Virus record (IMG/VR): IMGVR_UViG_3300043449_001984
Span: 1 to 60,064 of that record
Direction: 5' to 3' (one strand)
DNA: 60,064 nt
Source of the DNA: a virus
Lineage: Duplodnaviria; Caudoviricetes
In this document: in pieces, positions 2,132 through 12,606 of the stretch
How the letters are laid out: each line of letters starts with the position of its first letter
How positions within the stretch are numbered: the stretch's first letter is position 1
Notes under the pieces: generated by a model
Seen by the model: the letters and a program-made list of their open reading frames with translations, nothing else
Databases searched by the model: none
What the model was told of the DNA's origin: nothing
Program-made: the position numbers and the translations under genes

Positions 2132-2200
2132 TTAAACTTTTATTTATTTCTATAATGTTTAGTAATTTCTATCTGTTAACTAGAAATCCATTATAGTAAT

Positions 2201-2229: not shown

Positions 2230-2239
2230 CCTTTATTTT

Positions 2240-2525
2240 TTATTCAGAATATTCGTCTTTTTTTGGAAATTTTTGTTGTAATTTTTTATCGAAAGCGTCT
2301 GTTGCCCATTTTCTAATTTTTTTATCTACTGGATGGTCTATATGGGGATTATCTATTTTGTGTTTTATATCAGACTTAAATTGTTTATACGTATGTTTTA
2401 TATTTCTTGGAGCATATGGATGTTGGAGTCTATCCATTATTTTTTCTAACTCTGCTTTTTTTTTGTTCTGGAGTTCTTTTATCTTCTTCATTGATTTCTT
2501 GTATAAATTTTTTGAAAGTTTTCAT
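2240..2525 (-). CDS. putative internal head protein, frameshifted at an A9 run (2456-2464)
   Basis: MKTFKKFIQE... begins at 2525 and joins the 2240-2491 ORF if the run is A8; TATAAATA at 2552-2559. Confidence 0.55.
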
Positions 2526-2551
2526 ATAATTTCCTTAATTGATTGATTATA

Positions 2552-2559
2552 TATTTATA
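2552..2559 (-). promoter_or_regulatory. T4-type late promoter
   Basis: TATAAATA. Confidence 0.65.
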
Positions 2560-2574
2560 AAAACTTTTTAAGAT

Positions 2575-2649
2575 TGGAGCTCCCTGCCGGAATCGAACCG
2601 ACTTCTCAAGATTACAAGTCTAGTGCATCGCCGCTTATGCTTAGGGAGC
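2575..2649 (-). tRNA. trnT: tRNA-Thr(TGT)
   Basis: CTAGA-CT TGT AA-TCTTG; CCA end. Confidence 0.9.
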
Positions 2650-2653
2650 ATTA

Positions 2654-2830
2654 TCATTCTTTCAACAAACAATACGAATATATTTCTGATCCAGTTTTAG
2701 AACTCATATTCGCATACAGAGGTAACATTGTATCATATGCTACCTGACATTTATCTTTAGAAGTAAATCCATCAACTTGAACAGTTTGAATTTGTCCTAC
2801 CATAACAAAATAAACTATTAAAGTATACAT
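2654..2830 (-). CDS. small hypothetical protein, 58 aa
   Basis: Hand-translated MYTLIVYFVMVGQ...YCLLKE; hydrophobic N-terminus; AGGA upstream. Confidence 0.55.
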   Translation of the reverse strand: MYTLIVYFVMVGQIQTVQVDGFTSKDKCQVAYDTMLPLYANMSSKTGSEIYSYCLLKE

Positions 2831-2838
2831 ACCATTTC

Positions 2839-3366
2839 CTACTTATTTGGATTTACTCTTGCCGCACCTTTACTAGAACGAAGAGGTCTTACCTGACTAT
2901 GATGAGTTATCATATAACTCGTTGAACCAGGATCTTCAAACACATTCTCATATGATAAAGTATGTATACCATTTTTTCTTAATGATTTTGCAACGTGCTT
3001 AAATGTCAAATCTCCTTTTAATACTTTATTCTGTTGATGCTGTTGTTGGGTAATATGCCCGGCTCTTAATAACATATTATTCAAATCGTGAGGAGTATGA
3101 TCTCCTTCAAAATCTGGTAAATGTGCAACTTTACCCAATTTAATTCTAACTGCGTGGTGATGTACTTCATCACCAGTACCTAAATCGCCAGACATTTTTC
3201 TATTTCTAACTAAATCTCTAGAAGCATTTGCAGTTCCAAAATGAGATAATGGTCTAAAATCTGTACCAGCAAATTTATATGGAGAAAGATGATGCAAAAC
3301 TTCGCTTTCCCCTTCTTGCGCTTTATATTCTTTACTTTCTTCTATAAATTTCTTAAACGATAACAT
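2839..3366 (-). CDS. putative ADP-ribosyltransferase (ART-PolyVal-like) with capsid-targeting N-terminus
   Basis: MLSFKKFIEE; VLHH...SHFGT...LRKNGIHTLSYENVFEDPGSTSYMI..SQV pattern. Confidence 0.55.
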   Translation of the reverse strand: MLSFKKFIEESKEYKAQEGESEVLHHLSPYKFAGTDFRPLSHFGTANASRDLVRNRKMSGDLGTGDEVHHHAVRIKLGKVAHLPDFEGDHTPHDLNNMLLRAGHITQQQHQQNKVLKGDLTFKHVAKSLRKNGIHTLSYENVFEDPGSTSYMITHHSQVRPLRSSKGAARVNPNK

Positions 3367-3406
3367 TTAAATACTCCAAAATATGATATTGAGTATTTAT
3401 TCAACT

Positions 3407-3481
3407 TGGCGGTTCTAAGGGGGAACGATCCCCTACTTATGCTGTGACAGAGCATCGTGCAGACCACTACACTATAGAACC
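3407..3481 (-). tRNA. trnD: tRNA-Asp(GTC)
   Basis: ATGCT-CT GTC AC-AGCAT; CCA end. Confidence 0.9.
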
Positions 3482-3489
3482 TTAAACTT

Positions 3490-3563
3490 TGGTGGCGATA
3501 GGAAGAATCAAACTTCCGCTCAGAGGATATGAATCTCTTGTTCTATCACTAAACTATATCGCC
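3490..3563 (-). tRNA. tRNA-CAT (Met or Ile2)
   Basis: AGAGA-TT CAT AT-CCTCT; CCA end; one mismatch in anticodon stem. Confidence 0.8.
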
Positions 3564-3572
3564 AATAATATT

Positions 3573-3649
3573 TGGTGGGTCCCCTCGGATTTGAACCGAG
3601 ACTCTCTCATGTTATGAGCATGGCGTTTTTACCCTTAAACTAGAGACCC
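3573..3649 (-). tRNA. tRNA-CAT (Met or Ile2)
   Basis: CATG-CT CAT AA-CATG; CCA end. Confidence 0.85.
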
Positions 3650-3656
3650 TAATATT

Positions 3657-3730
3657 TGGTGCTCCTAGATGGTATCGATCCACCGTCTGAATCTTATCAG
3701 GATTCTGTTCTACCTTTGAACTATAGAAGC
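3657..3730 (-). tRNA. trnI: tRNA-Ile(GAT)
   Basis: GAATC-CT GAT AA-GATTC; CCA end. Confidence 0.9.
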
Positions 3731-3736
3731 ATAAAT

Positions 3737-3822
3737 TGGTGGGGCGAGTGGGATTCGAACCCACTCGGAAATTAATCGCTAGATTAAAAGTCTAGTGCCG
3801 CAACCAATTCGGCGTCCGCCCC
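3737..3822 (-). tRNA. trnK: tRNA-Lys(TTT) with long variable region
   Basis: CTAGA-CT TTT AA-TCTAG; 14-nt variable region; CCA end. Confidence 0.8.
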
Positions 3823-3856
3823 ATGTATTCTAGACTTTACGATTAATTCCAATATT

Positions 3857-3932
3857 TGGCATCGCTAGAGGGACTCGAACCCCCGACCATTCGCTTAGAA
3901 GGCGAATGCTCTATCCACTGAGCTATAGCGAC
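3857..3932 (-). tRNA. trnR: tRNA-Arg(TCT)
   Basis: TTCGC-CT TCT AA-GCGAA; CCA end. Confidence 0.95.
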
Positions 3933-3939
3933 ATTATTT

Positions 3940-4016
3940 TGGTGCGCCCCCTCGGACTTGAACCGAGAACCAACAGATTATGAGTCTGCTACTCTGACCA
4001 ATTGAGCTAGAAGCAC
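3940..4016 (-). tRNA. tRNA-CAT (Met or Ile2)
   Basis: GCAGA-CT CAT AA-TCTGT; CCA end. Confidence 0.9.
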
Positions 4017-4022
4017 TTGTCA

Positions 4023-4559
4023 TTAAATTTTTTCTATTACAATAAATCCATTATTTTCTATGGTGGAATATACAAATTTCCAGTTATGATTCTTTGTCAT
4101 AAATTCTATTATTGCTGGTAATAATCCTATTCTATCGTCTTCACCATAAAGTCCAAACGTAAATGTGTCATGAAACGCAATATATTTTCTAACTTTATGA
4201 GAATGAATATTTAATTCCGCAATTAATTGATCATATGTATGTTTAGAATCTATAAACAAAAAATCAGTTTCTTGTATTTCAACGTTTAGCGTATTTCCTT
4301 TAATATATTCAACATCTCTACCTTGAGATTTTGCTAATTCAAACCTTTCGTTTAGAACTTCATCTATATAAAGATCATAAGATCGTAAAACTACTTCTAC
4401 GGATAATAATGCTCTTGTTGATATTCCATCACGAACTCCAAATTCTGTTACGTGATTACATTCTGATGCTATTGTTCTTAGCAGTGGCAAATGGAAATAA
4501 ATATCACCAAATGTATTGCAAGCAATCTCATATTCTTTTATAAATGATTCATCTACCAT
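4023..4559 (-). CDS. class I SAM-dependent methyltransferase (Methyltransf_24-like)
   Basis: VTEFGVRDGIST motif I; DFLFIDSKHTY; IAFHD. Confidence 0.75.
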   Translation of the reverse strand: MVDESFIKEYEIACNTFGDIYFHLPLLRTIASECNHVTEFGVRDGISTRALLSVEVVLRSYDLYIDEVLNERFELAKSQGRDVEYIKGNTLNVEIQETDFLFIDSKHTYDQLIAELNIHSHKVRKYIAFHDTFTFGLYGEDDRIGLLPAIIEFMTKNHNWKFVYSTIENNGFIVIEKI

Positions 4560-4580
4560 AATTTTTCTCTAGTTGTAAAT

Positions 4581-4665
4581 TGGTGGGGGTGGAAGGATTC
4601 GAACCCACTAACCCGAAAGAACTGATTTACAGTCAGCCGCCACTCGCCATCGTAGCCGCACCCCC
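4581..4665 (-). tRNA. trnY: tRNA-Tyr(GTA)
   Basis: GCTGA-CT GTA AA-TCAGT; long variable arm; CCA end. Confidence 0.95.
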
Positions 4666-4670
4666 CAAAA

Positions 4671-4775
4671 CTTTTTATAAGATAGAATAATCAATCCTAA
4701 CTTTGCTACCACAAAGATACTCGCTATTGGTAGATAACCGGGAACTATCCCGTCGAATATCCTATCTTATAAAAG
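4671..4775 (-). ncRNA. structured RNA with long closing stem and kissing loops
   Basis: TTTTATAAGATAG/CTATCTTATAAAA closing stem; internal hairpin loops CTACCA and TGGTAG are complementary. Confidence 0.65.
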
Positions 4776-4866
4776 AACCGATACTCTAAGAGTAATATTA
4801 ATCCTCGGTTCAACAGATATAGATGTCTATTTCCATCAGTCAAATGATATTTCCTATCATTATGTT

Positions 4867-4942
4867 TGGAAGCGAGTGGTGGAATCGAACACACCCTCTC
4901 TAGCTTATGAGACTAGAATAGTCACCAGACTACATACTCGCA
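4867..4942 (-). tRNA. tRNA-Met(CAT), initiator-like
   Basis: CTAGT-CT CAT AA-GCTAG; 1:72 mismatch; CCA end. Confidence 0.75.
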
Positions 4943-5778
4943 AGTTCTTTTATAACTTTTAAAGCAATATTCTTATATATTTTAGAAATTTCTTTCTCTG
5001 ATGTTTGAAATATTAATGGTATTCCTTTATCAGAATTATCTCTAATACTTTGGTTAATAGGTATTGATCCTAATAATTTAGTATTAAATTTTTTCATCAT
5101 CTTTTTTGCGCCACCCTCTCCAAATATATGAGAAGTGTGGTTACAATTTGGGCAGACAAACAAACTCATATTTTCAACAATTCCAAGTATTGGTATATTG
5201 GAATCTTTAAACATCTGTATACCTTTTTGTACATCAAGTAAAGCAATTTCTTGTGGAGTAGTGACAATCACAGCTCCCGCCAAATTCATTTTATTTGACA
5301 TAGAAATTTGAATATCACCAGTTCCAGGTGGCATATCAACAATCAAATATTCAAGAACGTCCCATTTAGTTTTATACATTAAATGGTGAATCATAGAGTC
5401 CAACATTGGACCTCTCCAAGTCACCGATTGATCTTCATCAATCATAAATCCAATAGACATTGCCTGAATATTATAAGCCATCACAGGAATATTTTCCTCA
5501 AAATGCCTTTCCGTTTTTGTATTATTTACTCCAAGAAGTAACGGAACACTTGGTCCATATATATCTGCATCCAAAATACCAACCTTATAACCCAGTTTTG
5601 ATATTGAAGCAGCTATATTAACAGCGGTTGTAGATTTTCCAACACCCCCTTTACAAGAAGAAACTGCAATAATTTTTGTATTTGCAAGAGGATTTTCCTT
5701 TGGCTTATATCTTGCCATTAATTGCTTCAATTCTTCATCAAGAAATTCTTCAGTATTATCTGTTTGAGTATCTTCCAT
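4930..5778 (-). CDS. mrp: Mrp/ApbC (NBP35 family) Fe-S cluster carrier ATPase
   Basis: KGGVGKST deviant Walker A; DADIYGPS; WRGPM; VDMPPGTGD; VENMS..CPNC. Confidence 0.92.
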   Translation of the reverse strand: MEDTQTDNTEEFLDEELKQLMARYKPKENPLANTKIIAVSSCKGGVGKSTTAVNIAASISKLGYKVGILDADIYGPSVPLLLGVNNTKTERHFEENIPVMAYNIQAMSIGFMIDEDQSVTWRGPMLDSMIHHLMYKTKWDVLEYLIVDMPPGTGDIQISMSNKMNLAGAVIVTTPQEIALLDVQKGIQMFKDSNIPILGIVENMSLFVCPNCNHTSHIFGEGGAKKMMKKFNTKLLGSIPINQSIRDNSDKGIPLIFQTSEKEISKIYKNIALKVIKELASM

Positions 5779-5808
5779 AATTTATCCTTACATAAATACT
5801 TATATATT

Positions 5809-5885
5809 TGGCGTCCCTACGGAGGATCGAACTCCGACTCTTCAGATTGAAAGTCTGACGATTTAACCAATTAATCTATAAGGAC
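5809..5885 (-). tRNA. trnE: tRNA-Glu(TTC)
   Basis: TCAGA-CT TTC AA-TCTGA; CCA end. Confidence 0.95.
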
Positions 5886-5891
5886 AAAATT

Positions 5892-5990
5892 TGGCCCCGT
5901 TATTACTCATAAGCGAGTAGCCCCAATGGTTTCTACTTATCAGTCATTTTAAGTCGGGAGAACGGGAGCACCGACATTAGTTGCAACACA
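5892..5990 (-). ncRNA. CCA-terminated non-tRNA structured RNA (possible pseudoknot)
   Basis: GTCGG/CCGAC stem whose loop CCCGTT can pair with 3' AACGGG; TACTCG/TGAGTA hairpin; ends GCCA. Confidence 0.5.
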
Positions 5991-5993
5991 ATT

Positions 5994-6284
5994 TGGTGCC
6001 GGTGGAGAGATTCGAACTCTCAATCCCGAAGGCGGCAGATTTTCTTACCACTATAGCTTTCACTACCATTTCTGTTTGTGGTCTGGACTATATCTTCACC
6101 ATATCATTAAGACTTAGGTGCTTGGGTATCTAGTCTCTACGGAGTCCTGTTTCCAGTTCCCTCGGTATTACCATCAGCATTATCTGTTAAGGTTTCACCG
6201 ATATCCCCAAGTCCACTTATACAATTTCTTATATAAGGCTCAAATTTCTCAAGTCTGCTGTGTATACCATTCCACCACACCGGC
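5994..6284 (-). tRNA. trnL: tRNA-Leu(TAA), interrupted by group I intron
   Basis: Exons 6284-6251 and 6053-5994 splice to GCAGA-CT T^AA AA-TCTGC; long variable arm; CCA end. Confidence 0.92.
6054..6250 (-). mobile_element. group I intron (trnL-UAA/IC3-like), 197 nt, no internal ORF
   Basis: Inserted after U34; P1 U.G pair (CTT/GAG); ATCGGTGAAACC and GGTAATACCGAG (P4/P6); GTAGAGACTAG and AAGATATAGTCC (P7); terminal G. Confidence 0.9.
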
Positions 6285-6290
6285 TTTTAT

Positions 6291-6710
6291 TCATTTACTA
6301 TACTGATTTTTACCTTCTTTGTTATTTGAAGGTTTTCCTTTCAACCCTTTTGCATTTAAGTTATTTAACATTTTTCTACTATTTAATTTTCTAGCTTCTT
6401 CTAAGCCATATTTTTCTACTAATTTCTGCCAACAGCTTTTCCAAGTTCCATTATCTTTAGCGTCTTGGATATTTTCTGATCTAGTTCCCCAGTATAAATG
6501 TTTTGGGTTAGAACATTTATCATTATGACAAGCGTGACATAAATCTATCCACGGATTTGGTTTATGGGGAATATTCGTATTCAAATATTGAGCAAGAACA
6601 CCTTTATGAACCGTACTGTTTCCACCACGCTCTATACAACATTCAGTCAAATCTAAATGCTCTGTTCTTGAATCTTTATTCTCTTTAATCCACTCTTCAA
6701 CCAAAATCAT
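6291..6710 (-). CDS. free-standing HNH (His-Me finger) homing endonuclease
   Basis: DLCHACHNDKCSNPKHLYWGTRSENIQD; basic C-terminal tail. Confidence 0.85.
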   Translation of the reverse strand: MILVEEWIKENKDSRTEHLDLTECCIERGGNSTVHKGVLAQYLNTNIPHKPNPWIDLCHACHNDKCSNPKHLYWGTRSENIQDAKDNGTWKSCWQKLVEKYGLEEARKLNSRKMLNNLNAKGLKGKPSNNKEGKNQYSK

Positions 6711-6723
6711 TTCATTTCCTTAA

Positions 6724-6783
6724 CCTCAACTACAGAACTATCTTAACCCATCAAGCCGCGAAAGTAAAGCGTTTTATTTTCGC
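6724..6783 (-). repeat. 60-bp promoter cassette, copy 1 (drives HNH)
   Basis: 52/60 identical to 6871-6930; TTTACT-17 nt-TAAGAT. Confidence 0.75.
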
Positions 6784-6789
6784 TAAATT

Positions 6790-6872
6790 TGGTGGATCTA
6801 TGGGAATCGAACCCATCCCTCTCTCACATTGCCTCGCGAGTCTATTTTTGAGAGGTCACACCAGCAAGACCC
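6790..6872 (-). ncRNA. tRNA-like RNA resembling a tmRNA tRNA-like domain
   Basis: GGGTCT/AGATCC-A-CCA with G3:U70; unpaired CTGGTGTGAC instead of D-stem; CTCTCA/TGAGAG helix; canonical T-arm. Confidence 0.6.
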
Positions 6873-6930
6873 TCAACTACAAAACTATCATAACTCATCA
6901 TTCAGCGAAAGTAAAGTTTTTTATTTTCGC
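6871..6930 (-). repeat. 60-bp promoter cassette, copy 2 (drives tmRNA-like RNA)
   Basis: TTTACT-17 nt-TATGAT; near copy of 6724-6783. Confidence 0.75.
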
Positions 6931-6931
6931 G

Positions 6932-7075
6932 AAAAGAGGACCGTCGCCAGAGGAACTTAATTCCCATCTCTTACGAGAACCCCGGTCAGAGTGGTATTAA
7001 ATGACCCCACCCACTGCTCATACGCAATCCTTCAAGGTCTATCGGATGCGCTTTCTTCTTCAGATTTCAAACTAT
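6932..7075 (-). ncRNA. GC-rich structured transcript, possibly containing an 11-codon ORF (6986-7021)
   Basis: Stems CGCATCC/GGATTGCG, AGTGG/CCACT, TCTC-GTAA-GAGA, GACCG/CGGTC; own promoter upstream. Confidence 0.45.
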
Positions 7076-7081
7076 AGAGTT

Positions 7082-7109
7082 ATTATACCTAACTCTTTGC
7101 GAAAGTCAA
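7082..7109 (-). promoter_or_regulatory. sigma70-type promoter
   Basis: TTGACT-16 nt-TATAAT. Confidence 0.7.
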
Positions 7110-7432
7110 GAACTTTTTAATTTCTCAATATCATCAGAATCTTTTATGTGGTGATCTGTGTGCATCGCCGGAGATCCTTCTATTTTTCCGCTATAATGAG
7201 CAACAGAAGCCATCAACTTTCCACCATCATTTCTAAAATTAAATTCTTTGTTTTTGTGTTGACCCATTGCATTATGAGGTAGGACATATTCCCCATTGCT
7301 GTATTTGGTATCAACATTACCTCTTGGAAAGTGTTTTCTAATTATATCTCTTTGTGGTTCTGTTAAATGTAAATATTCTTTTGTCTCTTTTTTCTTACCA
7401 AACCACTCATTAAATTGTTTAAACGTTTTCAT
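7106..7432 (-). CDS. putative internal head protein
   Basis: Capsid-targeting-like N-terminus MKTFKQFNE; GAGG RBS. Confidence 0.6.
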   Translation of the reverse strand: MKTFKQFNEWFGKKKETKEYLHLTEPQRDIIRKHFPRGNVDTKYSNGEYVLPHNAMGQHKNKEFNFRNDGGKLMASVAHYSGKIEGSPAMHTDHHIKDSDDIEKLKSS

Positions 7433-7499
7433 TAAACTATACCTCTTTTATATAAAGAAAGTATTTATTTTTTTTGGTACAAAAAATAAAAAAATAATT

Positions 7500-7574
7500 T
7501 GGAGTGCGCGACAGGATTCAAACCTGCATAAAACGAACTTGCAAATCGCTACCTAATCATTCGGTCACGCGCAC
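7500..7574 (-). tRNA. trnC: tRNA-Cys(GCA)
   Basis: GCGAT-TT GCA AG-TTCGT; U discriminator; CCA end. Confidence 0.85.
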
Positions 7575-7581
7575 ATTAAAT

Positions 7582-7655
7582 TGGAGCTCCTAGCAGGTTA
7601 CGATCCTGCGTTTCCGTTATACCAAAACGGTAGTCTTCCATTGACTTATAAGAGC
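7582..7655 (-). tRNA. trnT: tRNA-Thr(GGT); 5' half overlaps the nuclease CDS
   Basis: CCGTT-TT GGT AT-AACGG; CCA end. Confidence 0.85.
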
Positions 7656-8339
7656 ATTAATTTTATCCCATTCAAGATTATGTTTATCTAAAACGAACAC
7701 TTTTATACTATTTCTTTTTTCGGATTCTGATATTTTAATTTTATCTTTTTCAATCAAGAAATCGTTTTTTGGGTCTAAATAAACATCAAATTCTGTCAAA
7801 TAGAAATCTGGATAATACTTATTACCAGAATCATTCCAGACAAATCCAACCTTTGGTCTTTCCCATTTTATATTATTTTCGTCTAATGATTTTGCGGTAA
7901 TAATTTCAAAATTTGAATCAAACCAAATATCTTTGTAATATTTTCCTTTATTTGGATGGGGTCTATATCCCCCCAAATTTCGTTCTTTAGCAGCAACAGA
8001 TAATCTTTGTAATCCATCTTTTGTGAATTTTCTTTCGCCTCTCTCAATAGAGAGAATATTTGCTTCTCCTGTTGTTCTAGTTTTTAGATCTAATTTCGTA
8101 ATTGTTCCCAATGAAACATTATAATGTGTTGCCAACTTTCTGAGCGAAAGACCTGAATCATATAATTCTTGCGCTTCAATTTTATCTATATTTTTTGGAC
8201 CATAAACGTTTCGTACATTATTTAATTTTAATTTAAAGATAACATTAACCGAAACATCAAAATGATTCGCCAATTTTTTAAACGAAAATCCAGAATCATA
8301 TAATTCTTGCGCTTCAATTTTATCTATATTTTTAGACAT
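7617..8339 (-). CDS. putative homing endonuclease: tandem HTH repeats + PD-(D/E)xK nuclease
   Basis: Two KNIDKIEAQELYDSG repeats; FDSNFE...YYPDFYL...VYLDPK; GGAGG RBS and late promoter. Confidence 0.75.
   Translation of the reverse strand: MSKNIDKIEAQELYDSGFSFKKLANHFDVSVNVIFKLKLNNVRNVYGPKNIDKIEAQELYDSGLSLRKLATHYNVSLGTITKLDLKTRTTGEANILSIERGERKFTKDGLQRLSVAAKERNLGGYRPHPNKGKYYKDIWFDSNFEIITAKSLDENNIKWERPKVGFVWNDSGNKYYPDFYLTEFDVYLDPKNDFLIEKDKIKISESEKRNSIKVFVLDKHNLEWDKINALISQWKTTVLV
8155..8333. repeat. 41-bp exact direct repeat (8155-8195, 8293-8333)
   Basis: gaatcatataattcttgcgcttcaattttatctatattttt twice; encodes the duplicated HTH. Confidence 0.9.
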
Positions 8340-8355
8340 ACGTACCTCCTATTAT

Positions 8356-8363
8356 TATTTATA
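8356..8363 (-). promoter_or_regulatory. T4-type late promoter
   Basis: TATAAATA 16 nt upstream of the nuclease ATG. Confidence 0.7.
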
Positions 8364-8366
8364 AAA

Positions 8367-8399
8367 AAGGTTGCGTTCTACCATTTCTACTATAGGAGC
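8367..8399 (-). pseudogene. orphan 5' half of a tRNA-Thr
   Basis: GCTCCTA-TA-GTAGAAATGGTAGAAC-GCAACCTT; GCTCCTA pairs perfectly with TAGGAGC of the tRNA at 7582. Confidence 0.7.
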
Positions 8400-8406
8400 A
8401 ATAAAT

Positions 8407-8484
8407 TGGTGCCCTCGGTCAGATTCGAACTGACACTTTACGGCTTCTAAAACCGCTCACTCTACCAGATTGGTGTACAAGGGC
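8407..8484 (-). tRNA. trnL: tRNA-Leu(TAG), short variable loop
   Basis: GCGGT-TT TAG AA-GCCGT; A discriminator; CCA end. Confidence 0.85.
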
Positions 8485-8486
8485 GT

Positions 8487-8574
8487 TGGCGGAAAACTGA
8501 GGTCTCGATCCCCAAACCCGTGCGAGTTCAACAGGATTAGCAATCCGTTCCAGATCCCATCTGGTTAGTTTTCC
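8487..8574 (-). tRNA. trnS: tRNA-Ser(GCT)
   Basis: GGA-TT GCT AA-TCC; long variable arm; G discriminator; CCA end. Confidence 0.85.
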
Positions 8575-8589
8575 CTTGACTATGTTTAT

Positions 8590-8617
8590 ATCTTACTACA
8601 CTTTTCAAAAAAGTAAA
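8590..8617 (-). promoter_or_regulatory. sigma70-type internal promoter
   Basis: TTTACT-16 nt-TAAGAT. Confidence 0.5.
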
Positions 8618-8618
8618 G

Positions 8619-8708
8619 TGGCGGAAGCGGTAGGATTTGAACCCACGGAGGTATTACCCTCGACAGTTTTCAAGACTGTTCCAATAAACCAGACTCTGGC
8701 ACACTTCC
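8619..8708 (-). tRNA. trnS: tRNA-Ser(TGA)
   Basis: ACAGT-CT TGA AA-ACTGT; long variable arm; CCA end. Confidence 0.95.
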
Positions 8709-8715
8709 ATTAAAT

Positions 8716-8797
8716 TGGCATCGCAGAGAGGATTCGAACCCCCATTTTCAGTCCAATTACCTTTTTCTTGGGTCGTAACCAAGAGGGATACTGCGAT
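8716..8797 (-). tRNA. non-canonical tRNA-Arg(ACG) without a normal D-arm
   Basis: ATCGCAG/CTGCGAT-G-CCA; TCTTGG-TT ACG AC-CCAAGA only 6 nt after acceptor; GGTAATTGGA in variable region; canonical T-arm. Confidence 0.7.
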
Positions 8798-8806
8798 ATT
8801 ATAAAT

Positions 8807-8881
8807 TGGTAGTTGGGGAGAATTTCGAAATCTCGACCTTCGCTTTGTAAGAGCGATACTCTGCCTCTGAGTTACCCAACT
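8807..8881 (-). tRNA. trnV: tRNA-Val(TAC)
   Basis: TCGCT-CT TAC AA-AGCGA; CCA end. Confidence 0.92.
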
Positions 8882-8888
8882 AAAATTC

Positions 8889-8988
8889 TTGATACAGGGA
8901 ACGCTCGACCGATCGTTTTAGGACACTTGTTATTGGTTAGCATATAGCAACAAGGTTATGTATCAAAGGTCGCCCGAAGGTTAGACCT
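8889..8988 (-). ncRNA. structured RNA between tRNA-Phe and tRNA-Val
   Basis: AGGTC..cTTCGg..GACCT hairpin; TTGATACA/TGTATCAA stem enclosing CTTGTTG/TAACAAG and AACG/CGTT arms. Confidence 0.55.
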
Positions 8989-8992
8989 AAAT

Positions 8993-9067
8993 TGGTGCCG
9001 CCGAATGGTAACGATCCATCCTCCAGGGATTTTCAGTCCCTTGCTAATCCATCTCAGCTACAGCGGC
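8993..9067 (-). tRNA. trnF: tRNA-Phe(GAA)
   Basis: AGGGA-CT GAA AA-TCCCT; CCA end. Confidence 0.92.
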
Positions 9068-9069
9068 TT

Positions 9070-9144
9070 TGGGGTGGTTAACGGGTATCGATCCCGTGCG
9101 TACACTTTCACAGAGTGTGATGCTACCATTACATCATAACCACC
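9070..9144 (-). tRNA. trnH: tRNA-His(GTG)
   Basis: ACACT-CT GTG AA-AGTGT; G-1:C73; CCA end. Confidence 0.92.
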
Positions 9145-9152
9145 ATAAAATT

Positions 9153-9226
9153 TGGTTTCGGGACATGGACTCGAACCACGATTCACAGAGTCAAAGTCTG
9201 TTGTCCTACCATTAGACGATCCCGAA
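9153..9226 (-). tRNA. trnQ: tRNA-Gln(TTG), first gene of the array
   Basis: ACAGA-CT TTG AC-TCTGT; CCA end. Confidence 0.95.
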
Positions 9227-9240
9227 TTAATTTATCCTTT

Positions 9241-9271
9241 TTGTTAAAGAGCTGCGAACTTTTCAGTTCAC
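9241..9271 (-). promoter_or_regulatory. boxB-boxA (rrn-like Nus antitermination site)
   Basis: Hairpin GTGAACT-GAAA-AGTTCGC followed by GCTCTTTAACAA. Confidence 0.75.
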
Positions 9272-9286
9272 TTTCAACTTAGATAT

Positions 9287-9315
9287 AGTTTACGTCGGAA
9301 GCAAAAAATTGTAAA
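9287..9315 (-). promoter_or_regulatory. sigma70-type promoter of the tRNA array
   Basis: TTTACA-17 nt-TAAACT with A-tract upstream. Confidence 0.7.
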
Positions 9316-9365
9316 GCACTTTTTTGTAAACAATTTATTTCCAATCAGTAAACAATCTTACATAA

Positions 9366-9395
9366 TGAAAAAGCCCAGCGGTTTAGACTGGGCTT
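9366..9395 (-). terminator. intrinsic terminator of putative attenuator
   Basis: AAGCCCAG...CTGGGCTT stem running into TTTTTCATT. Confidence 0.85.
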
Positions 9396-9437
9396 GTTAT
9401 TTTTAAACTTATTTTATCTTTTAAAAATGACAAACCC
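9390..9437 (-). promoter_or_regulatory. antiterminator hairpin
   Basis: GGGTTTGTCATTTTTAA (9437-9421) pairs with TTAAAAATAACAAGCCC (9406-9390), 16/17 positions, sequestering the terminator 5' arm. Confidence 0.75.
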
Positions 9438-9543
9438 TCGTTGGCGTTTGGCGGTGACTATTGGTAAAATCGCAATATGTCACCTGCCACGCTTCGGGTG
9501 ACATTGGTAAATTGGAATTAATGAGTTTAAATGTTTTATTCAT
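9421..9543 (-). CDS. putative attenuator leader peptide, 40 aa
   Basis: MNKTFKLINSNLPMSPEAWQVTYCDFTNSHRQTPTRVCHF*; 19 of 20 amino acids; stop codon lies in the antiterminator 5' arm. Confidence 0.7.
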   Translation of the reverse strand: MNKTFKLINSNLPMSPEAWQVTYCDFTNSHRQTPTRVCHF

Positions 9544-9548
9544 ATTTC

Positions 9549-9556
9549 TATTTATA
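9549..9556 (-). promoter_or_regulatory. T4-type late promoter (predicts leaderless leader mRNA)
   Basis: TATAAATA 5 nt before the ATG. Confidence 0.7.
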
Positions 9557-9599
9557 CAAATTTTACACTTTTTTTACGATTTTTTTAACTTTTTTTAAA

Positions 9600-9842
9600 T
9601 TATTTTTCAAAAATCATAACAATATTATCAATTGAGATGATATATTTACCATCACCAACATCAGTTGCCCTATTCCAATCAACCATTGCTTCTTCACCAA
9701 CTGAAATTTCGGTCACATCAGGACCAATTGATTCAATTAAAGCTCTATCCGGATTAAGGGATTCTCTGAGAATAATTCCAGATTCAGTTTCTAGATTTGG
9801 TTTTACGCGACTAACAAGAACATTATTTTTTGTAGGTTTCAT
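9600..9842 (-). CDS. groES: GroES-like co-chaperonin
   Basis: MKP..NNVLV...ETESGIIL...IGPDV..ISVGE. Confidence 0.8.
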   Translation of the reverse strand: MKPTKNNVLVSRVKPNLETESGIILRESLNPDRALIESIGPDVTEISVGEEAMVDWNRATDVGDGKYIISIDNIVMIFEK

Positions 9843-9872
9843 ATTATTAATTATATAGTTTGTTTAGAAAGA

Positions 9873-9894
9873 TTGGGGAGCCGAAACTCCCCAA
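9873..9894. terminator. GC-rich hairpin after the 9915 gene
   Basis: TTGGGGAG/CTCCCCAA stem; weak U-tract. Confidence 0.5.
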
Positions 9895-9914
9895 GTAATT
9901 ATATAGTAATCAAG

Positions 9915-10826
9915 TTACATCCATTTTCCGCCGCCAGAACTTGGATCCTTCTTCAACGCAGAAGAAGAAAGTCTTGGTGGGGAAGCTGGCTTTGGAGCGG
10001 AAGCAACTGGTTTTGTTGGTTCTCCGCCAAGTTTAGCAATATTACTATGAATTTGTGAACTTGTCATACCACCTTTAGAAATTGGTCTTTCCATTCTTCC
10101 GGAAGGAGCAATCTTATTTAAAGAAGATACAGTTTTTCCAGTAGATTTTGTTAAATCAGAAGTTGCAGATTTCATTCTAGCAGCACTTCCTTTTAGATCG
10201 TTGATATAACCTTGATCTAACTTAGGTGATTGTTGAACTGGTTTAGTAACTGGAGTAACAACTTTTGGAATTGTTTTTGGTGCAGATTTTGCAACAGAAG
10301 CATCGCTTTTAACGTTACTTTGTCCAGTACTTGATTTAGGAATAATTGGCTTTGTAGAATTACTTGTTACTGGTCTTGGCGAAGACTTAGCAGAAGTATC
10401 AATCGGTTTTGGAGGTGTCATTTGTTTCGGTTTAGCTGATGTTTTATCGCCACCTCTCAATAAATCTAAAGGTTTTGCTAAATCAGCTTTTGCTGCAGCG
10501 GTAGTTTTTGGTCCCCATTTACCATCAACCTTCAAATTAGCACCGCCTAAATTTAATCCACTCTGCACAGCTTTCACTGCAGTGGATTTAACCTTATCCA
10601 AAAAAGAAGGTTCTTTTCCAGCAGCTTCTAATAATTCGTGTATATGATATTCGGAAAGTTCTACTTCATCTCTTTTATAGAGTTCTAAGATGGCTTCTGC
10701 AACAATTTCATTACTGTTATTTTCATCATTAGCAATGTTATATAGCACATCGCTAGGCATATTTTCCAACTGATTATCTGTATTATCATTTACAGATTCT
10801 GATATGAATTTTGAATATGATTTCAT
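9915..10826 (-). CDS. late protein: capsid-targeting N-terminus, peptidoglycan-binding motif, K/P/S/T-rich tail
   Basis: MKSYSKFISE; VKAVQSGL...LKVDGKWGPKTTAA (PG_binding_1-like); TATAAATA at 10849-10856. Confidence 0.6.
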   Translation of the reverse strand: MKSYSKFISESVNDNTDNQLENMPSDVLYNIANDENNSNEIVAEAILELYKRDEVELSEYHIHELLEAAGKEPSFLDKVKSTAVKAVQSGLNLGGANLKVDGKWGPKTTAAAKADLAKPLDLLRGGDKTSAKPKQMTPPKPIDTSAKSSPRPVTSNSTKPIIPKSSTGQSNVKSDASVAKSAPKTIPKVVTPVTKPVQQSPKLDQGYINDLKGSAARMKSATSDLTKSTGKTVSSLNKIAPSGRMERPISKGGMTSSQIHSNIAKLGGEPTKPVASAPKPASPPRLSSSALKKDPSSGGGKWM

Positions 10827-10848
10827 CTTTACTTCCTACAAATAAAAG

Positions 10849-10856
10849 TATTTATA
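10849..10856 (-). promoter_or_regulatory. T4-type late promoter
   Basis: TATAAATA. Confidence 0.65.
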
Positions 10857-11004
10857 AAAGATGATATTTTTGAATAAAATACACAAGAACCTCATACCAA
10901 GCATATATCGGAAAAATAACAGCTATCAAGAAAAGCCATCCTTTAGCTAAATAGATACCCATCAACCAAGCAATAATACCAAATAAAGTTAATAGTTCTC
11001 TCAT
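10852..11004 (-). CDS. small membrane protein, 50 aa
   Basis: Hand-translated MRELLTLFGIIAWLMGIYLAKGWLFLIAVIFPIYAW...; ATGA overlap with upstream gene. Confidence 0.65.
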   Translation of the reverse strand: MRELLTLFGIIAWLMGIYLAKGWLFLIAVIFPIYAWYEVLVYFIQKYHLL

Positions 11005-11195
11005 TCTTGCAAAAACTCAAGCAATTTAATCCCAGTATGGGTTAATCGGATACAAGATTTATCCGGGAAAACAAAATCTTCTTCTGGTAAATTAGAAACA
11101 GGTTTACCTTGATTTTCTAAAATGACGGATAACGCTTCTCCATAAGAAAAAGGTTTATTTACAAGGTTAGTATAAATTGATTTAGACGTATTCAT
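11001..11195 (-). CDS. hypothetical protein
   Basis: ORF overlapping both neighbours. Confidence 0.55.
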   Translation of the reverse strand: MNTSKSIYTNLVNKPFSYGEALSVILENQGKPVSNLPEEDFVFPDKSCIRLTHTGIKLLEFLQE

Positions 11196-11325
11196 TGTAA
11201 TTCTTCAAATAATGTTTTTTGTTTTTACGGGATGGATCGAATTTATCATCCGACTTTACTTTCTTCTTTCTTTTAGATTCAATTGGATCAAAATCTTTAA
11301 AGTTTTTAAGTTTTTTACTGTTCAT
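11182..11325 (-). CDS. small basic protein, 47 aa
   Basis: Hand-translated MNSKKLKNFKDFDP...NEYV; fills gap and overlaps neighbours. Confidence 0.55.
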   Translation of the reverse strand: MNSKKLKNFKDFDPIESKRKKKVKSDDKFDPSRKNKKHYLKNYNEYV

Positions 11326-11758
11326 TTTTCTCTGGTAGTAGTCCTGGAAACACTTCGTTAATTAAATTATAAGTCAAACCTTTTGTTTTTAGGTCTTTCT
11401 TAAGCATATTTACAAACACTTTTGCCTCGGTTGGCTCAAACGATTCTAATACTTGATTCAATAAAACATTTCTTTTTTCCTCCGACAATTTATCAGCAAT
11501 TTCATTTCCTTTAATAAACATATAAACCCTTTTGAGTTCTGACTGAATATCAGAAAAACTGATTCCAGGAGCAGTATCATTTGGCTCAATATAATCTTTC
11601 GGGAAATCTTTTACGTAGAATTCAATTCTTGGATCATAAGCATATACTAACATTTGTTTGAACCAAGGAGTCGCATTTTCCATCATAATTCTTTTCTTTT
11701 CATTTTTTGAATCAGTAGAATTGATCTCATTCAAAATTTCGTACATAAATTTTTTCAT
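11315..11758 (-). CDS. conserved T4-like hypothetical protein (DUF6433-like)
   Basis: YEIL...K.EK...YDP...LE..EP.EA...KK.L...GLT...FPGL pattern; lies next to rnh. Confidence 0.6.
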   Translation of the reverse strand: MKKFMYEILNEINSTDSKNEKKRIMMENATPWFKQMLVYAYDPRIEFYVKDFPKDYIEPNDTAPGISFSDIQSELKRVYMFIKGNEIADKLSEEKRNVLLNQVLESFEPTEAKVFVNMLKKDLKTKGLTYNLINEVFPGLLPEKNEQ

Positions 11759-11760
11759 TT

Positions 11761-12606
11761 TTAAAACTCATCTATAACTTCAAGTAAATTAATTAACTTC
11801 TTTTCAACCATATATTTATACAATTTTTGTCTACTAGAAGGTTCCGATTCATCGTATTCTTTGACAATATTTAATCTAATATCTTCAGGTATATTATCAA
11901 AATTAATTAGAGTATCGTTTCTACAATAATTACGATAAACTTCATCATCAAAACAAATTCTAGGATCTTGCTCCAACCATTCTATCAATTTCTTATTTGA
12001 CACAGGCGATTGTCTTCTACCAGTAACAAATACATCATCATTAGAAAATGTATTTGGAATACCGTCTCCAGAATCTCCCCTAATAATTTTTTCTTTTAGA
12101 TCCTTAATAGGATTCTTTGAAGTAACATAAACTCCTAACATTGGATTGTATTGTTTTACGTTAGGATATTTTTGTAATTGTACAAAATCTTTATCCGACG
12201 ATAAAATCAAAATCTTTTCGTGCGCACTAAGTCTAGGAGTAAGAGTTCCTATAATATCATCCGCTTCAGCGCCATCAACTTCAATAACTTTATAAGGAAA
12301 ATGATCCTTTAGATCTTGTTTAATTCCATTCAATGCTTTGAATATTATATTCCAATCAAGTGGAGATTTTTCTCTTGCAGCTTTCCTGTGAGCCTTATAA
12401 TGGGGGAATACTTGTTTTCTCCAATAAGTTCTAGAATCACAACAAAGAATAACTTCTCCATATTCGCCTTTAAACTTCTTGGCGTTTGCCCTAATAGAAT
12501 TAAGAGCAATATGTCTAATTAAATCTTCTTCAATTGATTGTTTAGGATTCACTTGAGCCAATACAGACGAAATCATTACTTGGTTCAAATCCACCAAAAT
12601 AGCCAT
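11761..12606 (-). CDS. rnh: T4 RNase H (5'-3' exonuclease)
   Basis: ILVDLNQ, YWRK..FPHYKA.R, EADDIIG, SSDKDFVQLQ, GDSGDGIPN. Confidence 0.95.
   Translation of the reverse strand: MAILVDLNQVMISSVLAQVNPKQSIEEDLIRHIALNSIRANAKKFKGEYGEVILCCDSRTYWRKQVFPHYKAHRKAAREKSPLDWNIIFKALNGIKQDLKDHFPYKVIEVDGAEADDIIGTLTPRLSAHEKILILSSDKDFVQLQKYPNVKQYNPMLGVYVTSKNPIKDLKEKIIRGDSGDGIPNTFSNDDVFVTGRRQSPVSNKKLIEWLEQDPRICFDDEVYRNYCRNDTLINFDNIPEDIRLNIVKEYDESEPSSRQKLYKYMVEKKLINLLEVIDEF

What the first reader, a model, noticed from the sequence alone, without database searches (positions are those of the whole stretch)
9366..9556. Pan-amino-acid ribosome-stalling attenuator gating the phage tRNA operon
Seen (minus strand, directly upstream of the 27-tRNA array): late promoter TATAAATA (9556-9549); 5 nt later the ATG of a 40-codon ORF, MNKTFKLINSNLPMSPEAWQVTYCDFTNSHRQTPTRVCHF*; then an intrinsic terminator (AAGCCCAG/CTGGGCTT + U-tract). 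The ORF uses 19 of 20 amino acids (only Gly absent); the 20-residue core LPMSPEAWQVTYCDFTNSHR has 17 different residues, unlike the K/N/I/E-rich proteins around it. The last codons and stop (GGGTTTGTCATTTTTAA) pair at 16/17 positions with TTAAAAATAACAAGCCC, which takes up the terminator 5' arm. An internal ATGTCACC/GGTGACAT hairpin and a second GTCACC copy offer alternative (pause-type) folds. Established: this is the trp/his attenuator logic, and T4 late-promoter spacing puts +1 at about the A of ATG (leaderless). Inference: a ribosome reaching the stop masks the antiterminator and transcription terminates; stalling at any codon because a host tRNA is uncharged or cut by a defence nuclease allows read-through into a complete tRNA set. 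Classical attenuators sense one or a few amino acids; I know of no described all-codon sensor controlling phage tRNAs.
Basis: partly seen in the sequence, partly recalled or inferred. Interest (0 to 1): 0.95.

Follow-up and report, generated by a model that had tools for sequence, protein, structure and literature searches.

The report
Leader-ORF RNA switch before phage tRNAs
An uncultured T4-like phage carries, just ahead of its tRNA genes, a tiny late-expressed reading frame using 19 of the 20 amino acids whose last codons compete with a transcription stop signal, so it probably ties late tRNA production to how well ribosomes are decoding; this is predicted from sequence, not shown.

Summary
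On the minus strand lie TATAAATA (9556-9549), an ATG 5 nt later, a 40-codon ORF (9543-9421), an intrinsic terminator (9395-9371) and a hairpin (9437-9390) that contains the stop codon and takes up six bases of the terminator's 5' arm.

- **Pairing:** it beats 2000 of 2000 shuffles.
- **Close relatives:** the element is kept in L004, L087 and L088. Changes fall in loops and linkers: 4 of 68 stem columns vary against 29 of 105 others.
- **Diverged lineages:** L178 and L109/L119 (23-31% peptide identity) keep the 5-nt promoter spacing, 40-41 codons, 19 amino-acid kinds and a re-matched antiterminator/terminator pair.
- **Other families:** unrelated leader families before other phage tRNA arrays also hold 18-20 kinds.

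I read it as a ribosome-read attenuator of late transcription into the tRNA array (confidence 0.55).

Limits:
- A conserved sigma70-type promoter lies after the terminator, so the element is not the only gate.
- Equilibrium folding does not make every codon a sensor.
- There are no expression data.
- The whiB7 uORF is a published broad translation-stress attenuator.

This scan has noted the same architecture before on other DNA.

The parts
9549..9556 (-). T4-type late-promoter-like box TATAAATA, 5 nt before the ATG
   Evidence: The box and the 5-nt spacer length are kept in L004, L087, L088 and L178, and as TATAAGTA in L109/L119. Nucleotide conservation with L004 begins at this box. By the T4 rule (8-bp box about one helical turn upstream of the start, first base at -13; PMC2988020, passages read), +1 falls at about the A of the ATG.
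9421..9543 (-). 40-codon leader ORF plus stop (TAA 9423-9421), with no Shine-Dalgarno sequence
   Evidence: It is open and 40 codons long in L004, L087, L088 and P0001-3, 41 codons in L178 and 40 in L109/L119. Variable columns by codon position are 7:7:9, so the peptide sequence itself is not conserved. It has 19 kinds of amino acid.
9514..9530 (-). Nucleotide-conserved 5' stretch (UUUAAACUCAUUAAUUC) that can pair with the loop region of the antiterminator hairpin, giving a long-range helix in the terminator-form fold
   Evidence: MFE folds of the window and L004. It is invariant at third codon positions in 3 of 4 sequences. The helix is imperfect in the window; this part is inferred.
9485..9503 (-). 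Hairpin A (UGUCAC...GUGGCA)
   Evidence: RNAalifold consensus. The only variable column lies in its loop.
9453..9484 (-). Hairpin B (GGUGACAUAUUG - 9-nt loop - CAAUAGUCACC)
   Evidence: Four of its 9 loop columns vary. One stem column varies, as G-C to G-U.
9438..9452 (-). Hypervariable linker (codons 31-36)
   Evidence: Eight of its 15 columns vary with no indel.
9390..9437 (-). Antiterminator hairpin C. Its 5' arm is the last codons plus the stop codon; its 3' arm ends in AAGCCC of the terminator
   Evidence: 0 of 2000 shuffles. Arms are conserved and the loop is variable, with one indel. Equivalent but differently spelled pairings occur in L178 (7 of 1000 shuffles reach it) and L109 (0 of 1000).
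9366..9395 (-). Intrinsic terminator (9-bp stem, 7-nt loop, T-run)
   Evidence: -13.3 kcal/mol. The stem is invariant and the loop varies in L004.
9287..9315 (-). Sigma70-type promoter TTTACA-17-TAAACT downstream of the terminator; it serves the tRNA array independently
   Evidence: Both hexamers are conserved and the 17-nt spacer is variable in 4 of 4 sequences.
9241..9252 (-). boxA-like GCTCTTTAACAA in the tRNA leader
   Evidence: It is exact in L109, L119 and L178. The name 'boxA' is recalled and taken from the scan's note, not tested.
9153..9226 (-). tRNA-Gln(UUG), first gene of the array

Best explanation
This is a cis-acting, ribosome-read transcription attenuator at the head of the phage's tRNA array.

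**Proposed mechanism**
- Late in infection, polymerase starts at the TATAAATA box, so the RNA begins at or next to the AUG (a leaderless message).
- The 40-codon frame is translated while the RNA is being made.
- The RNA just behind it can fold in two nearly isoenergetic ways. One is an antiterminator hairpin whose 5' arm is the last five codons plus the stop codon. The other is the intrinsic terminator, whose 5' arm is the tail of the antiterminator's 3' arm.
- A ribosome that reaches the last third of the frame in step with polymerase holds the 5' arm open. The terminator then forms and a roughly 175-nt RNA is released.
- If the ribosome lags or is absent, the antiterminator competes and part of the polymerases run on. 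They pass the array's own promoter and boxA-like site and enter the tRNA genes.
- The frame's near-complete amino-acid set would make its transit time depend on the supply of almost every charged tRNA.

**Shown here:** the anatomy, its non-randomness, its conservation, helix-level covariation across lineages, the persistence of the frame and of its amino-acid diversity, and the thermodynamic effect of a modelled footprint.

**Inferred:** the transcription start, translation of the frame, read-through, and the physiological signal.
For: 1. The antiterminator pairing scores -17.2 kcal/mol against -6.2 +/- 1.6 in shuffles, and 0 of 2000 reach it.
2. L004 keeps 80% nucleotide identity over 363 nt, although the neighbouring GroES-like protein is only 51% identical.
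3. Across four aligned sequences, 4 of 68 stem columns vary against 29 of 105 non-stem columns (Fisher p = 2.9e-4). Three of the four stem changes convert one standard pair into another (G-C to G-U, A-U to G-U), and at the fourth the window alone is unpaired (A.G) where the other three have A-U.
4. A scan of all held loci for late box + 3-8 nt + ATG + 20-70 codon ORF + perfect-stem terminator returned only this element. The hits were the window, L004, L087 (L088 has the same peptide), L178 and L109 (L119 has the same peptide). All have a 5-nt spacer, 40-41 codons, 19 kinds and a terminator 24-30 nt after the stop.
5. In L178 and L109 the terminator arm is spelled differently, and the best upstream partner is again the stretch holding the stop codon. 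Seven of 1000 and 0 of 1000 shuffles reach it.
6. L178 has no promoter between the terminator and tRNA-Gln.
7. Amino-acid diversity, tested against composition-matched shuffles that stay open, gives P of 0.010 to 0.051 for the seven leaders tested, from six lineages outside the window. The Fisher combination of one value per lineage gives 1.2e-5, or 1.6e-4 for four clearly unrelated families. Independence is assumed.
8. With a ribosome footprint at A-site codons 32-41, P(terminator) is 0.95 in the window and L004, from codon 34-35 onward in L087 and L109, and at every position in L178.
9. The local antiterminator and terminator states differ by 0.9 kcal/mol or less in 4 of 5 lineages.
10. A more distant relative (G001) has a bare TATAAATA 20 nt before its first tRNA. 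Late transcription of tRNA arrays is therefore normal in this group.
Against: - There are no expression or translation data.
- There is no Shine-Dalgarno sequence, so translation has to be leaderless. I know of no T4-type example of that.
- A conserved promoter lies after the terminator in the window and most relatives, so the tRNAs do not depend on read-through.
- Within the close clade, substitutions show no codon periodicity (7:7:9) and nonsynonymous changes dominate. The relatives staying open is weak evidence there (P about 0.43-0.46 each).
- Equilibrium folding of the window keeps the terminator at 0.8-0.95 for most stall positions. In L178 it stays at 0.9 or above for all positions.
- The barrier from the antiterminator to the terminator state is only 3.9-5.4 kcal/mol. 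The antiterminator is a poor kinetic trap, and the dynamic range may be small.
- The element is absent from more distant relatives that have tRNA arrays: L005, L006, G001 and seven further loci.
- Three of the 17 ORF-plus-terminator heads in the panel have ordinary diversity of 11, 12 and 15 kinds.
Confidence: 0.55

Rival explanations
1. It is a stand-alone late small RNA (about 175 nt, non-coding or incidentally open) that ends at its own terminator. The hairpins serve stability or a trans-acting role, and the terminator mainly insulates the tRNA promoter from upstream late transcription.
For: - The fold is strong: -48.7 kcal/mol, z = -5.97.
- Constraint is at the nucleotide level, with no codon periodicity.
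- There is no Shine-Dalgarno sequence.
- The array has its own promoter after the terminator.
- The peptide has no family beyond one cluster.
Against: - The frame stays at 40-41 codons with a fixed 5-nt promoter spacing in lineages whose nucleotides no longer align. nhmmer finds nothing, and chance openness is 0.03-0.08 per lineage.
- Amino-acid diversity is kept.
- The stop codon always sits in the arm that competes with the terminator.
- L178 has no promoter after the terminator.
Confidence: 0.2
2. It is an RNA switch read by something other than the ribosome. A protein, an uncharged tRNA or a small ligand binding hairpins A/B would shift the antiterminator/terminator balance, and the open frame would be a by-product.
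For: - There are two near-isoenergetic, conserved alternative folds.
- Hairpins A and B are invariant in the close clade.
- The element sits in front of tRNA genes.
Against: - No Rfam family, T-box included, matches 9364-9556 at E <= 1.
- By eye, hairpins A and B have no evident counterpart in the L178 and L109 sequences, while the frame and the stop-in-arm geometry are kept. This was not tested with a model.
- This reading does not explain the amino-acid diversity.
Confidence: 0.1
3. It is an ordinary small late gene for a 40-residue protein with its own terminator, and the overlap of its 3' end with a hairpin is incidental.
For: - The frame is open in all relatives.
- M1, N2, I8, W19, C24 and R31 are invariant across the three lineages.
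Against: - Identity is only 23-31% between lineages and residues 33-36 and 39 are hypervariable.
- Nonsynonymous changes are not avoided.
- Third codon positions are conserved where stems lie.
- There is no protein family.
- The arm pairing beats all shuffles.
Confidence: 0.08
4. It is a mobile terminator-promoter cassette of the PeSL kind, conserved only because it was exchanged recently by recombination.
For: - A terminator followed about 55 nt later by a TTTACA-17-TAAACT promoter resembles the composite elements of PMC4122927 (abstract and passages read).
- The flanks are mosaic: tRNA-Gln types swap while the leader stays.
Against: - There is no second copy in the 60-kb window.
- Conservation is patterned (stems against loops, hexamers against spacer), not uniform.
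- This reading does not account for the late box, the frame or the antiterminator.
Confidence: 0.05

Closest known systems
Leader-peptide transcription attenuators of enterobacterial amino-acid operons (trpL, hisL, pheL, thrL, ilvL; pyrBI leader). Recalled textbook knowledge; the pheL paper PMC3082878 and the his-leader papers were seen only in a search listing
   Same: There is a short frame in the leader. There is an intrinsic terminator and an alternative hairpin that shares the terminator's 5' arm. A ribosome reaching the end of the frame favours termination. In the window and L004 there is also an upstream partner for the antiterminator arm, giving a four-region layout.
   Different: There is no run of codons for one amino acid; the frame instead holds 19 of 20 kinds. 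The message is leaderless and driven by a phage late promoter. The genes downstream are tRNAs, not biosynthetic enzymes. A second promoter lies after the terminator.
whiB7 (wblC) uORF attenuator of mycobacteria and other Actinobacteria (PMC10274678, abstract read)
   Same: Stalling in an upstream ORF is believed to cause antitermination. Deprivation of many amino acids, and knock-down of tRNAs and tRNA synthetases, activates it. It is therefore a published broad translation-stress sensor.
   Different: It is a bacterial chromosome gene. Its uORF is enriched for alanine. The output is a transcription factor, not tRNAs. There is no sequence relation.
Stress-induced long tRNA operon of Anabaena (PMC8421152 and PMC10272220, search listing only)
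   Same: An extra array of tRNA genes is switched on when translation is impaired.
   Different: By the listing, control is through a transcriptional repressor (TrcR). It is not a leader frame with a terminator, and it is cellular, not viral.
T4 tRNA cluster transcription unit (PMC2330249, passages read, citing Broida and Abelson)
   Same: A T4-type phage tRNA cluster has its own promoter just upstream and is made as one precursor. tRNA-Gln being first in T4 is recalled, not checked.
   Different: No leader frame or attenuator is described there.
PeSL composite terminator/promoter elements of T4-like phages (PMC4122927, abstract and passages read)
   Same: A stem-loop followed by a sigma70-like promoter (TTTACW-N17-TAYWAT in the T4/PST pair), lying at mosaic joints.
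   Different: PeSLs are multi-copy and carry no late box, frame or antiterminator. Here the element is single-copy in the window.

Membership tests
Leader-peptide (ribosome-mediated) transcription attenuator | Short ORF in the transcribed leader upstream of the regulated genes | tested here: met
   The ORF has 40 codons at 9543-9421. It is kept in L004, L087, L088, L178 and L109/L119.
Leader-peptide (ribosome-mediated) transcription attenuator | Intrinsic terminator between the ORF and the regulated genes | tested here: met
   Terminator at 9395-9371, a 9-bp stem plus T-run.
Leader-peptide (ribosome-mediated) transcription attenuator | Mutually exclusive antiterminator sharing the terminator's 5' arm | tested here: met
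   (0 of 2000 shuffles). It is re-matched in L178 and L109.
Leader-peptide (ribosome-mediated) transcription attenuator | Ribosome position decides the fold | tested here: inconclusive
   With a modelled footprint at A-site codons 32-41, P(terminator) is 0.95 in the window and L004, from codon 34-35 onward in L087 and L109, and at every position in L178. Earlier stall positions give lineage-dependent results, and in the window only codons 12-13 and 30-31 favour the antiterminator. The barrier between states is about 5 kcal/mol.
Leader-peptide (ribosome-mediated) transcription attenuator | Regulatory codons: a run or excess of codons for the sensed amino acid | tested here: not met
   There is no run. 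The frame has 19 kinds in 40 residues. This is the point of difference, not a failure of the mechanism.
Leader-peptide (ribosome-mediated) transcription attenuator | The ORF is translated and read-through responds to translation | not testable with these tools
   No RNA run was listed.
Leader-peptide (ribosome-mediated) transcription attenuator | Downstream genes depend on read-through (no promoter after the terminator) | tested here: not met
   TTTACA-17-TAAACT at 9315-9287 is conserved in 4 of 4 sequences. The feature is met in L178 only.
PeSL composite terminator-promoter element | Stem-loop followed by a sigma70-like promoter | tested here: met
PeSL composite terminator-promoter element | Many similar copies in one genome | tested here: not met
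   There is one exact promoter match, and no repeat family covers 9287-9395 in 1-12000. Only 36% of the genome is held.
Any Rfam family (T-box, amino-acid leaders, riboswitches) | Covariance-model match | tested here: not met
   There is no hit in 9364-9556 at E <= 1 among 4227 families.
Known protein family for the 40-aa product | Profile or sequence match | tested here: not met
   PHROGs gave 0 families. The 5.8-billion-protein set gave one 40-aa cluster. Among the 1.84 billion representatives, only P0001 scored better than E = 1e-4.

The most novel reading that the evidence does not exclude
Several lineages of uncultured T4-like phages head their tRNA arrays with a 'decoding-speed gauge'. 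This is a short frame that selection keeps stocked with nearly all 20 amino acids. A transcription switch reads the transit time of the ribosome through it, so that late tRNA synthesis rises whenever any charged tRNA runs short, whether from starvation, codon mismatch with the host, or tRNA-cleaving defences. That would be homeostatic control of tRNA genes by leader-peptide attenuation. I found no published account of this in five searches.
Probability: 0.45. Interest if true: 0.9.

Novelty: new variant of a known kind. Interest (0 to 1): 0.8.

Why it matters
Phage tRNA genes are usually treated as constitutive helpers for codon usage or as spares against tRNA-cutting defences. How their expression is controlled is largely unknown.

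A leader frame that samples almost every amino acid and sits in a terminator/antiterminator switch would be a general sensor of translation capacity wired to tRNA supply. That extends trp/his-type attenuation from 'one amino acid, one pathway' to 'all amino acids, the adaptor pool'.

The idea is directly testable with reporter fusions. It would also give a compact part for building translation-stress reporters. The recurrence of unrelated leader families with 18-20 kinds before other phage tRNA arrays suggests a common design rather than a curiosity of one contig.

Tried and rejected
- **Phage records:** a blastn of 9200-9900 found no match.
- **GroES-based locus search:** no relatives.
- **Exact-pattern scans:**
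  - Searches found only L082, which is the same contig as L004.
  - One search also hit L083-L086, which share just 21 nt and have no tRNAs. I treated these as chance.
  - L089 and L090 matched 10 residues only and were also treated as chance.
  - The genome-contig scan found nothing.
- **nhmmer:** the four-sequence profile found nothing in the 120-locus panel.
- **Peptide searches:**
  - The window's peptide gave one cluster.
  - The profile search added three marginal hits, P0004-6 (E = 1e-4 to 9e-4, proteins of 114-479 aa), not followed up.
  - The L109 and L178 peptides gave nothing.
- **Expression:** Those three were found by a protein search, so their being open is ascertainment, not evidence.
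- **Frame openness in close relatives:** weak evidence.
- **P(open) combination:** biased, because selected open frames. I do not rely on it.
- **Repeat search:** no other copy in 1-12000.
- **More distant relatives:** L005, L006, G001 and seven other loci lack the element.
- **Structure caveat:** the stems used came from RNAalifold on the same four sequences, so that test leans towards the structure.
- **Panel caveat:** It is neither random nor complete.
- **Supplements of papers:** not opened.
- **Complex prediction, structure prediction and the protein atlas:** not used. A 40-aa unconserved peptide gave no reason to.
Full report
**What is there**

The window is a 60-kb fragment (36% complete by CheckV) of an uncultured T4-like phage. 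Its DNA polymerase is at most 42.5% identical to that of any phage record held, and the nearest are cyanophages.

Read on the minus strand, the layout is:
- a GroES-like gene at 9842-9600, followed by an A-rich spacer;
- TATAAATA at 9556-9549, then five bases, then the ATG at 9543;
- a 40-codon ORF ending in TAA at 9423-9421;
- an intrinsic terminator at 9395-9371;
- a TTTACA-17-TAAACT promoter at 9315-9287, then a hairpin and GCTCTTTAACAA at 9252-9241;
- tRNA-Gln at 9226, first of an array of 22 tRNAs by ARAGORN plus three weaker Rfam hits.

**Is it more than chance?**

The stretch holding the last codons and the stop pairs with the 18 nt that end in the terminator's AAGCCC. The duplex energy is -17.2 kcal/mol against -6.2 +/- 1.6 for 2000 dinucleotide shuffles of the upstream RNA, and none reaches it. 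For the G+C-rich 8 nt alone, 0.35% of shuffles do. The whole 180 nt folds at -48.7 kcal/mol, z = -5.97.

The 5-nt distance from TATAAATA to the ATG is exceptional. Ten of the other eleven minus-strand copies have a qualifying ATG 16-72 nt away, several of them with a Shine-Dalgarno-like motif, and one has none. By the T4 rule, the 8-bp box lies about one helical turn upstream of the start with its first base at -13 (PMC2988020, passages). That puts +1 at about the A of the ATG.

Nineteen amino-acid kinds in 40 residues is only mildly unusual taken alone, with P of 0.03-0.06 under three nulls.

**Close relatives**
- L004 (the same contig as L082) keeps 80% nucleotide identity from the TATAAATA box to the tRNA, although its GroES-like protein is only 51% identical.
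- A degenerate-pattern scan of metagenomes added L087 and L088.
- A protein search added one cluster of three 40-residue peptides, P0001-3. Their DNA could not be fetched.
- In all three DNA relatives the element sits directly before a tRNA-Gln-first array.

Across the four aligned sequences, 4 of 68 columns in stems B, C and T vary, against 29 of 105 other columns (p = 2.9e-4). Three of the four stem changes convert one standard pair into another, and at the fourth the window alone is unpaired where the other three have A-U. The loops of B, C and T and the linker (codons 33-35) take most of the changes.

Variable columns fall 7:7:9 on codon positions, and nonsynonymous changes dominate. The RNA fold is therefore constrained and the peptide sequence is not. 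Staying open in these relatives is weak evidence, with P of about 0.43-0.46 each.

The promoter after the terminator keeps both hexamers and the 17-nt spacing while its spacer varies. That is the mark of a real promoter.

**Diverged lineages**

A scan with an 18-mer of the window's tRNA-Gln gave a panel of 120 phage tRNA loci. nhmmer with the four-sequence profile found nothing in it.

A rule-based scan of all held loci then looked for a late box, 3-8 nt, an ATG, a 20-70 codon ORF and a perfect-stem terminator within about 120 nt. It returned only this element, in the window, L004, L087, L178 and L109 (L119 is identical). Each has a 5-nt spacer, 40-41 codons, 19 kinds and a terminator 24-30 nt after the stop.

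The L178 and L109 peptides are 31% and 23% identical to the window's. M1, N2, I8, W19, C24 and R31 are invariant.

Their terminator arms are spelled differently (AACCCCAAG and AAAACCCUAG). In each, the best upstream partner of the arm is again the stretch containing the stop codon. L178 scores -14.0 against -6.9 +/- 2.0, reached by 7 of 1000 shuffles. L109 scores -17.2 against -5.4 +/- 1.8, reached by 0 of 1000. This is covariation at the level of whole helices.

L178 has no promoter between the terminator and tRNA-Gln. L109 and L119 carry TTGACT-17-TATAAT there.

**Is the amino-acid diversity maintained?**

Starting from the window's peptide and replacing 69-77% of residues at random, 19 or more kinds survive in 10-12% of trials. 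L178 and L109 both keep 19.

With looser rules, I examined 110 array heads in the panel. Of these, 27 have a terminator-like hairpin upstream. Seventeen also have an ATG ORF of 22-65 codons ending -5 to 60 nt before it. Fourteen of those 17 ORFs hold 18-20 kinds:
- the two lineages above, at three heads (L178, L109 and L119);
- a 32-33 codon family before tRNA-Lys-headed arrays (L124, L127, L149, L158, L172, L182, L186, L197);
- L144 (32 codons, 19 kinds), L211 (44 codons, 20 kinds) and L139 (46 codons, 20 kinds).

The other three hold 11, 12 and 15 kinds (L204, L144-Met, L163).

Against shuffles of each ORF's own bases that stay open, P(kinds >= observed) is 0.010-0.051. The Fisher combination gives 1.2e-5 for six lineages and 1.6e-4 for four clearly unrelated families, with independence assumed.

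In the second family the antiterminator arm lies inside the ORF, 18-30 nt before the stop (1 of 1000 and 0 of 1000 shuffles for L124 and L144). In L139 it lies 6 nt before the stop (P = 0.02). L211 shows none.

**How it would work**

With a modelled ribosome footprint (A-site -15 to +14) at codons 32-41, the terminator pairs form with P = 0.95 in the window and L004. They do so from codon 34-35 onward in L087 and L109, and at every position in L178.

Without a ribosome, or with earlier stalls, the outcome differs by lineage:
- L109: 0.08 with no ribosome.
- L087: 0.51.
- Window and L004: 0.95, with dips to 0.03-0.31 at A-site codons 12-14 and to 0.19-0.31 at codons 30-31 in the window.
- L178: always 0.90 or above.

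Folding the RNA as it exists just before the terminator's 3' arm is made gives the antiterminator in the window, L087, L088, L178 and L109. L004 is the exception.

Locally the two states are nearly isoenergetic. The window is -15.9 against -16.8, and four of five lineages lie within 0.9 kcal/mol. The direct-path barrier between them is 3.9-5.4 kcal/mol.

The switch is therefore poised. A ribosome on the arm tips it fully to termination. Otherwise a fraction of polymerases should read through. This supports 'ribosome arrives in time, so stop'. It does not by itself support 'a stall at any codon gives full read-through'.

**Context and limits**
- A more distant relative (G001) has an early-type promoter and a bare TATAAATA 20 nt before its first tRNA, with no frame and no terminator.
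- L005 and L006 have a 62-residue SD-led ORF before tRNA-Lys.
- Seven other loci have tRNAs directly after protein genes.
- The element is thus confined to certain clades. In the window it can only modulate the late-promoter contribution, because the array has its own promoter, as T4's cluster does (PMC2330249, passages).
- No expression data could be obtained.

**Comparison with what is known**

The layout is that of leader-peptide attenuators. It differs in lacking a run of codons for one amino acid, in the leaderless late start, and in controlling tRNA genes.

The claim that no broad sensor is described is too strong. The whiB7 uORF attenuator responds to shortage of many amino acids and to tRNA or synthetase knock-down (PMC10274678, abstract). 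The Anabaena tRNA operon is induced by translational stress, through a repressor (PMC8421152 and PMC10272220, listing only).

Five literature searches found no account of leader-peptide control of phage tRNA genes. No Rfam family matches.

**Earlier scan notes**

Earlier notes of this scan describe the same architecture in other freshwater T4-like and giant phages. None shares sequence with this window.

They prompted me to look for diverged and unrelated leaders. What I report on that rests on my own.

**Verdict**

I judge it a new variant of a known kind of regulator, with confidence 0.55 for the ribosome-read attenuator and interest 0.8.

Noticed in passing
window 9241-9315 (minus): The TTTACA-17-TAAACT promoter, a hairpin and GCTCTTTAACAA lie just before tRNA-Gln. 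The hexamers and the boxA-like word are conserved in L004, L087 and L088. GCTCTTTAACAA is exact in L109, L119 and L178 even though their leaders no longer align.
   Followed up: partly
L124:3781-3882 region and equivalents in L127, L149, L158, L172, L182, L186, L197: A second, unrelated leader family lies before tRNA-Lys-headed arrays. TATAAATA sits about 20 nt upstream, followed by a 32-33 codon ORF with 18-19 amino-acid kinds. The antiterminator arm lies inside the ORF, and the terminator is GGGGAGAGAAAC...GUUUCCUCCCC.
   Followed up: partly
L211 about 10365-10555; L139 about 4307-4500; L144 about 10400-10560: Three further short ORFs (44, 46 and 32 codons with 20, 20 and 19 kinds) end 25-30 nt before a terminator at tRNA-array heads. 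L211 has no significant antiterminator.
   Followed up: partly
window 9153-9226 against L088:1189-1263, L087:343-418, L004:9746-9821: The leader is conserved but the tRNA-Gln behind it comes in two unlike versions. L087 and L004 share an identical 76-nt gene, while the window and L006 share another type. This points to a recombination joint at the leader/tRNA border.
   Followed up: partly
L091 (G001:C1:90850-90970): A 126-kb relative has TTGACT-17-TATAAT, a hairpin and then TATAAATA only 20 nt before its first tRNA. There is no leader ORF and no terminator.
   Followed up: partly
L006:9760-10120 and L005:4600-5000: In these relatives a promoter, a hairpin, TATAAAT and an SD-led ORF of 62 residues precede tRNA-Lys directly. 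This is a different arrangement at the array head.
   Followed up: no
window, whole: TATAAATA occurs 12 times on the coding (minus) strand and twice on the plus strand. Base composition predicts about 12 per strand. Several minus-strand copies sit 16-42 nt before ORFs that have a Shine-Dalgarno-like motif.
   Followed up: partly
window 9600-9842 (minus): An 80-residue GroES-like co-chaperonin gene (phrog_3188, E = 7.8e-7) lies directly upstream. It is 89% identical in L088 but only 51% in L004.
   Followed up: no
L083-L086: An exact 21-nt match to the terminator region (AATAACAAGCCCAGTCTAAA plus one base) occurs in four contigs that have no tRNAs and no other similarity.
   Followed up: no
window 7503-7574, 4872-4941, 8719-8797 (minus): These are tRNA-like Rfam hits that ARAGORN did not call (45.7, 33.1 and 27.4 bits).
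   Followed up: no
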